DNA of 64,000 bases from Eledone cirrhosa (lineage: Eukaryota), in the NCBI GenBank assembly GCA_964016885.1, contig OZ024740.1:420794001-420858000 (forward strand), read 5' to 3'. A program made the translations under genes and the position numbers. Of this stretch, positions 37,949 to 38,518 are shown in pieces. The notes beneath the pieces were generated by a model. It saw only the letters and a program-made list of their open reading frames with translations, made no database searches and was not told where the DNA came from. Positions within the stretch are counted from its first letter, which is position 1. Each line of letters begins with the position of its first letter.

Positions 37949-37952
<4 letters not shown>

Positions 37953-38518
37953 AAACAAATAACGAAACGAAATTAAATTTCGTTTCGTTTGTAACTCACT
38001 TTTGTATTTCAGTATACATATATGGATGTACATCTCTAACTTAATTGTTTAAGCGTCAGTCATACAAAAGTGAGTTACAAACGAAACGAAATTTAATTTC
38101 GTTTCGTTATTTGTTTTTATCGTCTCCGTTGAACCAGTACTTACTCACACTCTATGCAAATTAGTCTGCCCACTACTAATTTTCATAGAAAAAGCATATA
38201 ACGATATGTGCTTTTACGATTCTCTAGAAAGGCCGGAAGATAGGTAAATATTGCTGATGAGTTGTAACAACAACGAAACTAGTTCAATATTCCTTGTCTG
38301 GCTTTCTGGAGAATAGAGGAAAGGTGTTTCCTCAAAAACCAGTATGACTCTAAAAACCGGTTTGTCTGTGTGTTTACATACAGAATAGCTGGCCACTCAC
38401 AGTAAAGTGACCAGTGAAAAAACTTGGTACATCTACATATGTATACGTGTGTGTATTCATATACATACTAGTATTTCAGTATACATATATGGATGTACAT
38501 CTTTAACTTAATTGTTTA
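37949..38518 (+). mobile_element. Hammerhead-bearing element in (TA)n: ~467-bp monomer, 48-bp terminal redundancy and inverted 59-bp 5' segment (Penelope pLTR / retrozyme-like)
   Basis: 37949-38007 is the reverse complement of 38062-38120. 38004-38051 is repeated at 38471-38518. Hammerhead at 38247-38291. Confidence 0.75.
38247..38291 (+). ncRNA. Minimal type I hammerhead ribozyme
   Basis: AATATTG CTGATGA GTTGT AACA ACAAC GAAA CTAG TT CAATATT: perfect 7-bp stem I, 5-bp stem II, palindromic ACTAGT stem III, GUU triplet. Confidence 0.88.

What the first reader, a model, noticed from the sequence alone, without database searches (positions are those of the whole stretch)
37949..38518. Unrelated hammerhead element with the same architecture in miniature
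Seen: a well-formed minimal hammerhead (38247-38291) with palindromic ACUAGU stem III and the same AACA loop 2. It is again enclosed in a long stem (TCTAGAAAGGCCGGA/TCTGGCTTTCTGGA). The insert is about 1.1 copies of a 467-bp monomer plus an inverted 59-bp 5' piece, with (TA)n on both sides. Its primary sequence is unrelated to the 310-bp unit. Inference: a second family using the same mechanism; terminal redundancy suggests copying slightly more than once around a circle.
Basis: partly seen in the sequence, partly recalled or inferred. Interest (0 to 1): 0.7.

Follow-up and report, generated by a model that had tools for sequence, protein, structure and literature searches.

The report
Twin-armed hammerhead retrozyme with Penelope tails
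This is one young copy of a very abundant 467-base non-coding repeat with a conserved hammerhead (predicted self-cutting) RNA motif, and most of its copies examined sit in TA microsatellites as two back-to-back arms ending at two different fixed points, the footprint of Penelope-type retrotransposons, whose enzyme likely copies a predicted RNA circle into both sides of a DNA break.

Summary
The element is a metazoan non-LTR retrozyme by its DNA features: a 467-nt non-coding monomer with a canonical short-helix-III type I hammerhead, not a 'minimal' one. Its ribozyme matches 7,632 places in the genome.

In 55 loci the ends are not permuted. Outer 3' ends fall at monomer position 112-117 or 38-48; 46 of 46 loci with two resolved outer ends have one of each. 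Inner ends are uniform (n=90, KS p=0.25), and a locus's two arms share a variant (0.8% versus 5.0%). The 'inverted 5' piece' is the second, tail-bearing arm.

This is the Penelope-like element (PLE) 'tail' footprint. A young, intact Hydra-clade PLE shows it too (8 of 8 loci, tail about 79 nt) but shares no sequence with the monomer. The monomer carries this genome's U6/MRP upstream element, with its TATA-like box 5-7 nt too close.

A circular template is likely but not shown; no RNA run was listed. The scan found this family and reading before on other DNA of this genome (e1-8667956, e1-8815111). Known kind, good test system.

The parts
37928..37950 (.). (TA)n target, left flank
   Evidence: sequence
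37949..38007 (-). Left arm: monomer positions 58-116, ending outward at fixed site A (tail-bearing 3' end)
   Evidence: 100% inverted copy of 38062-38120; mapped
38004..38007 (.). 4-nt microhomology (GTAT) joining the 5' ends of the two arms
   Evidence: overlap of repeats D4 and I1; junction table
38004..38518 (+). Right arm: one 467-nt monomer plus 48 nt, ending outward at fixed site B (position 47)
38052..38120 (+). Tail segment between sites B and A (about 70 nt) with hairpin 38080-38108 and a T5 run; likely the reverse-transcriptase recognition and initiation region (inferred)
   Evidence: most conserved long segment: 0.63% per site versus 3.2% over the whole monomer, 55 loci; hairpin fold
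38153..38164 (+). TATGCAAATTAG, matching the element at -76 to -79 of this genome's U6, U6atac and RNase MRP genes
   Evidence: 1 of 5000 shuffles holds the 12-mer; kept in the homologous R3 family
38194..38201 (+). TATA-like GCATATAA, 40 nt after the upstream element (45-47 nt in the U6 and MRP genes)
   Evidence: function untested
38219..38314 (+). Long stem enclosing the ribozyme
   Evidence: folds; A-U/G-U/G-C series at monomer pairs 225-300 and 226-299
38247..38291 (+). Type I hammerhead with short palindromic helix III; predicted cleavage after 38284 (GUU here, GUC in 26 of 54 loci that cover it)
38517..38540 (.). (TA)n target, right flank
   Evidence: sequence

Best explanation
This is a copy of a non-coding 467-nt hammerhead repeat (a non-LTR retrozyme) that is likely pasted into (TA)n by a borrowed Penelope-like RT-endonuclease copying a predicted monomeric RNA circle into both sides of one break. 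Steps: (1) inferred: tandem copies are transcribed from the snRNA-type upstream element of the preceding sequence and read through; (2) inferred: two hammerheads, probably acting as a dimer, cut out the monomer, which is ligated into a circle, so the RNA carries its own otherwise external promoter; (3) shown as a footprint, inferred as chemistry: the enzyme cuts both strands of (TA)n and primes one end at site A (116) and the other at site B (42/47) of the same template; (4) shown as a pattern: both copies run for a variable, often more-than-unit length and are joined 5'-to-5', often by short microhomology. The best candidate enzyme is the young Hydra-clade PLE (inferred, about even odds).
For: Abundance: 7,632 exact matches to the family's ribozyme pattern, control 0. 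Ribozyme under constraint: 11 core or core-adjacent sites differ by 0.17% per site against 3.2% overall; stem II covaries U-A/A-U in 26/28 loci. Ends: of 55 loci, 42 have two long arms with both ends resolved and 4 have a short second arm, and all 46 are A+B, none A+A or B+B; 7 are one-armed and 2 have a broken second arm. Same template: arm-to-arm mismatch averages 0.8% against a 5.0% median to other loci in 40 two-armed loci with at least 80 shared positions; 16 of 16 full units are identical across both arms of L119. No template 5' end: 90 inner ends are uniform (KS p=0.25), with 1 near the cleavage site (2.1 expected) and 2 near the predicted start (3.1 expected); 33 of 37 simple two-armed loci have an arm longer than a monomer. 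PLE link: two internal RT start sites define the tail, both target strands are extended, and a dimer is predicted (PMC11167929); a one-sided tail, inverted copy and (TA)n bias are PLE traits, and Hydra elements insert in (TA)n (PMC8557442). An intact Hydra family (784-codon open frame, mostly over 99% identical copies) has the same A+B arms in 8 of 8 loci with both ends visible.
Against: No sequence link to any autonomous element was found: no match beyond 11-21 nt between the monomer families and the young Hydra unit, and none to the older Hydra family beyond co-inserted neighbours. Neptune, Poseidon and Naiad families were not surveyed. The tail (69-74 nt) is longer than the published 30-40 nt and differs from both Hydra families (about 79 and 95 nt). 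The window's subfamily has a GUU site and is predicted to form an 8-bp palindrome in the dimer, yet it has young copies; in the anole PLE, ribozyme cutting was not needed for insertion (PMC11167929), and 8 of 9 Xenopus dimers did not cleave in vitro (bioRxiv 10.64898/2026.07.22.740005). Promoter spacing is 5-7 nt short, and each monomer has one T5 and two T4 runs, awkward for Pol III read-through (recalled rule). In 17 of the 40 two-armed loci some other locus's arm is closer than the partner arm. Arm similarity could also come from one dominant source locus or from gene conversion. Repeated unit variants in the L113 array point to later local duplication.
Confidence: 0.62

Rival explanations
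1. Same Penelope-type enzyme and same two priming sites, but the template is an uncleaved linear multimer read through from tandem source arrays, or the enzyme re-engages the template. The hammerhead is slow or accessory, and long arrays grow later by unequal crossover.
For: Hammerhead cutting is dispensable in vitro for the anole PLE (PMC11167929). Hammerhead-less Naiads also form partial tandems (PMC8557442). The GUU subfamily is active (28 of 54 loci). Arrays of 14 to over 30 units exist that could serve as sources.
Against: No pile-up of inner ends at a start site. The ribozyme core and stem II pairing are conserved across subfamilies and in the colinear R3 family. Related retrozymes in coral, mussel and axolotl are circular in vivo (PMC7229834).
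Confidence: 0.28
2. The two arms come from two independent RNA molecules or from DNA-level fold-back repair after a single insertion, and a LINE or other non-PLE enzyme does the copying.
For: Inversions by twin priming are known for LINEs (recalled). Other LINE fragments lie near some loci.
Against: Strict A+B pairing in 46 of 46 loci, with both outer ends being 3' ends facing outward. No A-rich tail. The two arms share a variant. The same geometry is seen in an autonomous PLE of this genome.
Confidence: 0.06
3. A DNA-level satellite or MITE-like repeat with a chance or dead hammerhead.
For: No expression data were obtained; the Rfam score is below gathering.
Against: The hammerhead pattern occurs 53,196 times against 0 for the control. 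Many changes keep pairing through G-U on the sense strand; among locus-private changes shared by both arms, A>G plus C>T number 12 against 1 for T>C plus G>A. Inner ends are 5'-truncated as in retroposition.
Confidence: 0.04

Closest known systems
Metazoan non-LTR retrozymes (Cervera and de la Pena 2020, PMC7229834; part 2 of 6, sections 14 and 17 and passages read)
   Same: Non-coding tandem repeat with one type I hammerhead per unit, low GC, highly self-paired predicted circle, thousands of copies, co-existing PLEs; PLE mobilisation of circles is proposed there.
   Different: Monomer of 467 nt versus about 170-400. In the parts read there is no mention of two-armed inserts, two fixed 3' ends, microsatellite targets or an internal snRNA-type promoter. 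Circles were shown there, not here.
Retrozymes as non-autonomous PLE derivatives (bioRxiv 10.64898/2026.07.22.740005; parts 1-3 of 5 read, supplements not seen)
   Same: Argues a PLE origin and PLE mobilisation; consensus lengths of 51-972 bp include this size.
   Different: Rests on co-occurrence and pLTR homology in vertebrates. Here no pLTR homology was found and the link is the insertion footprint.
Hydra clade of Penelope-like elements (PMC8557442; section 11 and passages read)
   Same: (TA)n targeting, hammerheads, tandem and inverted arms with a one-sided tail. Two Hydra families (RW[KR], DKT and CxCX5C motifs) are in this genome, one young and intact.
   Different: Autonomous (3.5-kb unit, RT plus GIY-YIG). 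No shared sequence with the monomer; tails about 79 and 95 nt versus 69-74.
Anolis Poseidon PLE in vitro (PMC11167929; parts 1-2 of 4 read)
   Same: Two internal initiation sites bounding the tail near a stem-loop, AT-rich target, both strands extended.
   Different: Tail of 30-40 nt inside the ORF. The paper found no strand difference in start site in vitro, whereas the genomic pattern here is strictly one site per side.

Membership tests
Metazoan non-LTR retrozyme | Type I hammerhead in each repeat unit with conserved core | tested here: met
Metazoan non-LTR retrozyme | Head-to-tail tandem copies of a few hundred bases, dispersed | tested here: met
   466-470 bp periods on many contigs
Metazoan non-LTR retrozyme | Non-coding, no LTR structure | tested here: met
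   longest ATG frame 30 codons in a monomer dimer; ends described; PBS and PPT were not searched separately
Metazoan non-LTR retrozyme | Highly self-paired predicted circle with the ribozyme free to fold | tested here: met
   circular MFE -149.5 versus shuffles -89.6 +/- 5.8, best -103.6, n=60
Metazoan non-LTR retrozyme | Expression as linear and circular RNA; self-cleavage | not testable with these tools
   needs tissue RNA and a cleavage assay
PLE min-HHR (PMC4209133) | No helix III, long helix II (7-8 bp), short helix I | tested here: not met
   helix I 7 bp, helix II 5 bp, palindromic helix III
PLE-type insertion | Inverted 5'-truncated partner arm and tail at one end only | tested here: met
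   46 of 46 loci with two resolved outer ends
PLE-type insertion | Tail length 30-40 bp | tested here: not met
   69-74 nt here; about 79 nt in the genome's young Hydra element
Autonomous PLE | RT plus GIY-YIG ORF | tested here: not met
   no ORF
Non-autonomous derivative of a particular PLE | Sequence homology to that PLE's pLTR | tested here: inconclusive
   none to two Hydra families; other clades not surveyed
Type 3 (U6-like) Pol III promoter | Upstream element plus TATA box at the host's spacing | tested here: inconclusive
   element matches; spacing 40 versus 45-47

The most novel reading that the evidence does not exclude
A U6-type external promoter is made portable by hammerhead circularisation, and one Hydra-clade PLE dimer primes both ends of a (TA)n double-strand cut from two fixed sites about 70 nt apart on a single RNA circle, rolling out two arms. 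That would be a general one-template, two-primer mechanism explaining the PLE tail, inverted arms and tandems, with this retrozyme as a minimal substrate.
Probability: 0.3. Interest if true: 0.72.

Novelty: new member of a known kind. Interest (0 to 1): 0.44.

Why it matters
Which enzyme moves animal retrozymes, and how PLEs make tandem, inverted and tailed insertions, are stated open questions (PMC7229834, PMC8557442, PMC11167929). Thousands of young copies give a strict rule: one end from each of two sites, both arms of the same variant, no template 5' end. The same genome holds an intact candidate enzyme, so the question can be tested with a 467-nt RNA and one protein. The element class itself is known, and this scan had already noted the same family elsewhere in this genome.

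Tried and rejected
Circular permutation of outer ends: rejected. Site A as simply a Pol III-terminated RNA end: disfavoured, because the 310-bp family and the Hydra elements end at sites without a T run. Run-off at the cleavage site or at the predicted start: not seen. Difference in length between A and B arms: none (medians 551 and 559, p=0.73, n=37). Homology to the 310-bp unit outside the ribozyme: none. Unbiased local alignment of snRNA upstream regions to the monomer did not single out the promoter motif above shuffles; it was recognised from its fixed position in the snRNA genes. U2 upstream regions lack the motif. A fourth hammerhead type (L103) was searched as a possible autonomous relative, but the 39 other hits covered only a flanking repeat. 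Pfam did not recognise the PLE proteins; clade assignment rests on motifs listed in PMC8557442 section 11. RNA data: no RNA holder listed. Four runs of unrecorded kind were laid as contigs; they cannot show expression or circularity. Literature searches: octopus + hammerhead ribozyme, retrozyme + polymerase III + promoter, and Penelope/nonautonomous/tail/inverted/hammerhead/circular RNA listed no paper on this family or on this footprint in retrozymes; only listings were seen and the library is partial. Rows left out of counts: L018, L037, L112, L128 and L129 from the inner-end test; L001, L016 and L036 (under 80 shared positions) from the arm comparison, so the window's own copy is not in that test. 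Sampling bias: 35 loci were best hits to the full monomer and 20 were chosen by coordinate order among ribozyme matches on C1, so short ribozyme-less copies are under-sampled.

Full report
Observation. It has a 59-nt perfect inverted arm, a 515-nt arm made of one 467-nt monomer plus a 48-nt repeat, and (TA)n on both sides. Monomer position 1 is window 38005. The hammerhead (38247-38291) matches Rfam HH9 at 37.7 bits, E 8.7e-8, under the gathering score. It folds inside a long stem with z -5.3 on the sense strand. By PMC4209133 (parts 1-2 of 4 read) it is the canonical metazoan type I form with a 1-2 bp palindromic helix III, the kind thought to need a dimer, and not the min-HHR. Outside the ribozyme the monomer is unrelated to the window's 310-bp unit. 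It is colinear along its whole length with a third family, here called R3 (score 228.5 against a best shuffle of 77.5).

Family. The genome (3.0 Gb; an animal, probably a cephalopod mollusc, which is my untested inference) holds 7,632 exact matches to this family's ribozyme pattern and 53,196 to a looser hammerhead pattern, both with control 0. I mapped 55 loci: 35 from the best-hit search and 20 chosen by coordinate order on C1. Eleven core or core-adjacent sites differ by 0.17% per site and the tail segment by 0.63%, against 3.2% for the whole monomer. That set omitted G12 and included C15.2; G12 is not among the shared variable sites. Stem II covaries (U-A in 26 loci, A-U in 28). The cut site is GUU in 28 and GUC in 26 of 54 loci. 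Many other changes are G-U-tolerated on the sense strand, though about ten predicted pairs are broken in 3 or more loci.

Ends. Every resolved outer end lies at position 112-117 (site A) or 38-48 (site B), nearly always against (TA)n. Forty-two loci have two long arms with both ends resolved, counting one rearranged locus (L037), one interrupted locus (L112) and three long arrays closed with extra stretches or by the continuous run of ribozyme matches. Four more have a second arm of about 8-24 nt. All 46 are A+B. Seven loci are one-armed and two have a broken second arm. The window's 'inverted 5' piece' is therefore the A arm, and the long arm is the B arm. Inner ends are uniform over the monomer (n=90, KS p=0.25), with no excess at the cleavage site or predicted start, and are often joined by 1-11 nt overlaps. 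The two arms of a locus differ by 0.8% on average against a 5.0% median to other loci (n=40); in 17 of the 40 some other arm is closer.

Link to Penelope-like elements. A tail on one end only, an inverted truncated partner and (TA)n bias are PLE traits (PMC8557442, passages and section 11). In the one PLE studied in vitro the tail is the stretch between two internal RT start sites, both target strands are extended, and ribozyme cutting is not required (PMC11167929, parts 1-2 of 4). Two Hydra-clade families are present here. An older one has a tail of about 95 nt at the one locus inspected. A young one has a 3,531-bp unit and a 784-codon open frame, and its 8 loci with both ends visible are all A+B with a tail of about 79 nt. 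Its A end (CGTTA, then TC) resembles that of the monomer and R3 (TTTA, then TC), a weak hint. No longer homology was found, so the partner is a candidate only; other clades were not surveyed.

Promoter. An earlier scan note (e1-8815111) suggested a U6-like promoter, and I tested it. Three distinct U6 upstream regions and the RNase MRP gene carry TATGC[A/T]AAT[T/G]AG at -76 to -78, and the best U6atac gene a one-base variant near -79, each with a TATA box near -31. The monomer has TATGCAAATTAG at 149-160 (1 of 5000 shuffles), kept in R3 and absent from the 310-bp unit. Its TATA-like box is 40 nt away (41 in R3) instead of 45-47, and each monomer has one T5 and two T4 runs. The polymerase is therefore open. 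From recall and not from any call: newt satellite 2 uses an snRNA-type promoter, element spacing can set polymerase choice in flies, T runs end Pol III transcripts, and GUU sites cut more slowly than GUC.

Mechanism. Shown: fixed A and B outer ends, one of each per insertion, same-variant arms, random inner ends, more-than-unit arms (33 of 37) and a conserved ribozyme. Inferred: read-through transcription, dimeric cleavage, circularisation, and double priming of one template by a PLE enzyme. I put PLE mobilisation at about 0.9, a circular template at about 0.65-0.7 given that, and the young Hydra family as the enzyme at about 0.5. The main rival is an uncleaved linear multimer. It is helped by the active GUU subfamily, by the predicted 8-bp palindrome in its dimer, and by weak cleavage of 8 of 9 Xenopus dimers (bioRxiv 10.64898/2026.07.22.740005, parts 1-3 of 5; its supplements are closed and may bear on pLTR homology).

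Novelty. The class, its circles in mussel, coral and axolotl, and the proposal of PLE mobilisation are published (PMC7229834; PMC4209133). Searches listed nothing on this family or on the A+B footprint in retrozymes. This scan's earlier notes report the same family and reading on other DNA of this genome; they are not independent support, and my reading of the ends was written before I saw them. Verdict: a real, young member of a known kind, with a sharp and testable insertion rule.

Noticed in passing
window 19877-21529 and 57533-64000: The 310-bp hammerhead arrays are also two-armed in (TA)n. The first has two different outer ends about 31-36 nt apart on the unit; its ribozyme reads CUGAAGA with an AAUA loop, while the second array has CUGAUGA with AACA.
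   Followed up: partly
L102:1259-1803 (G000:C1 near 1.61 Mb) and L081, L104, L105, L110: Third abundant hammerhead family (R3), colinear with the 467-nt monomer at roughly 65-75% identity, keeping the promoter-like element, ribozyme layout and tail hairpin; its site is mostly GUA.
   Followed up: partly
L215 (G000:C1:437202496-437207589) and L199-L227: Young intact Hydra-clade PLE in tandems of up to four 3.5-kb units. Its hammerhead has the U3-A8 core variant described for Schistosoma PLEs and a long helix II.
   Followed up: partly
L131-L170: Older, very abundant Hydra-clade family (68,735 first-look candidates) with a long AT-rich 3' region.
   Followed up: partly
L249, L250, L257, L258, L256: U6 and U6atac copies that lack the promoter and begin directly after (TA)n or next to the Hydra tail; possibly snRNA retrocopies placed in the same targets.
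   Followed up: no
55 loci, sense strand: Locus-private changes shared by both arms are strand-biased (A>G 7, C>T 5, T>C 1, G>A 0). This fits selection for G-U pairs or deamination of the RNA; n is small.
   Followed up: partly
run X5, record 16: A 497-nt contig (466+31) closes on itself over the monomer. Tandem DNA and circular RNA would both give this, and the run type is unrecorded.
   Followed up: no
window 36621-36703 (-): tRNA-like sequence (Rfam 37 bits) beside another common short repeat, probably tRNA-derived SINEs.
   Followed up: no
window 3896-15878, 23321-24760, 30703-33307, 34484-34934: Long minisatellites with 48-, 29-, 33- and 66-bp units.
   Followed up: no
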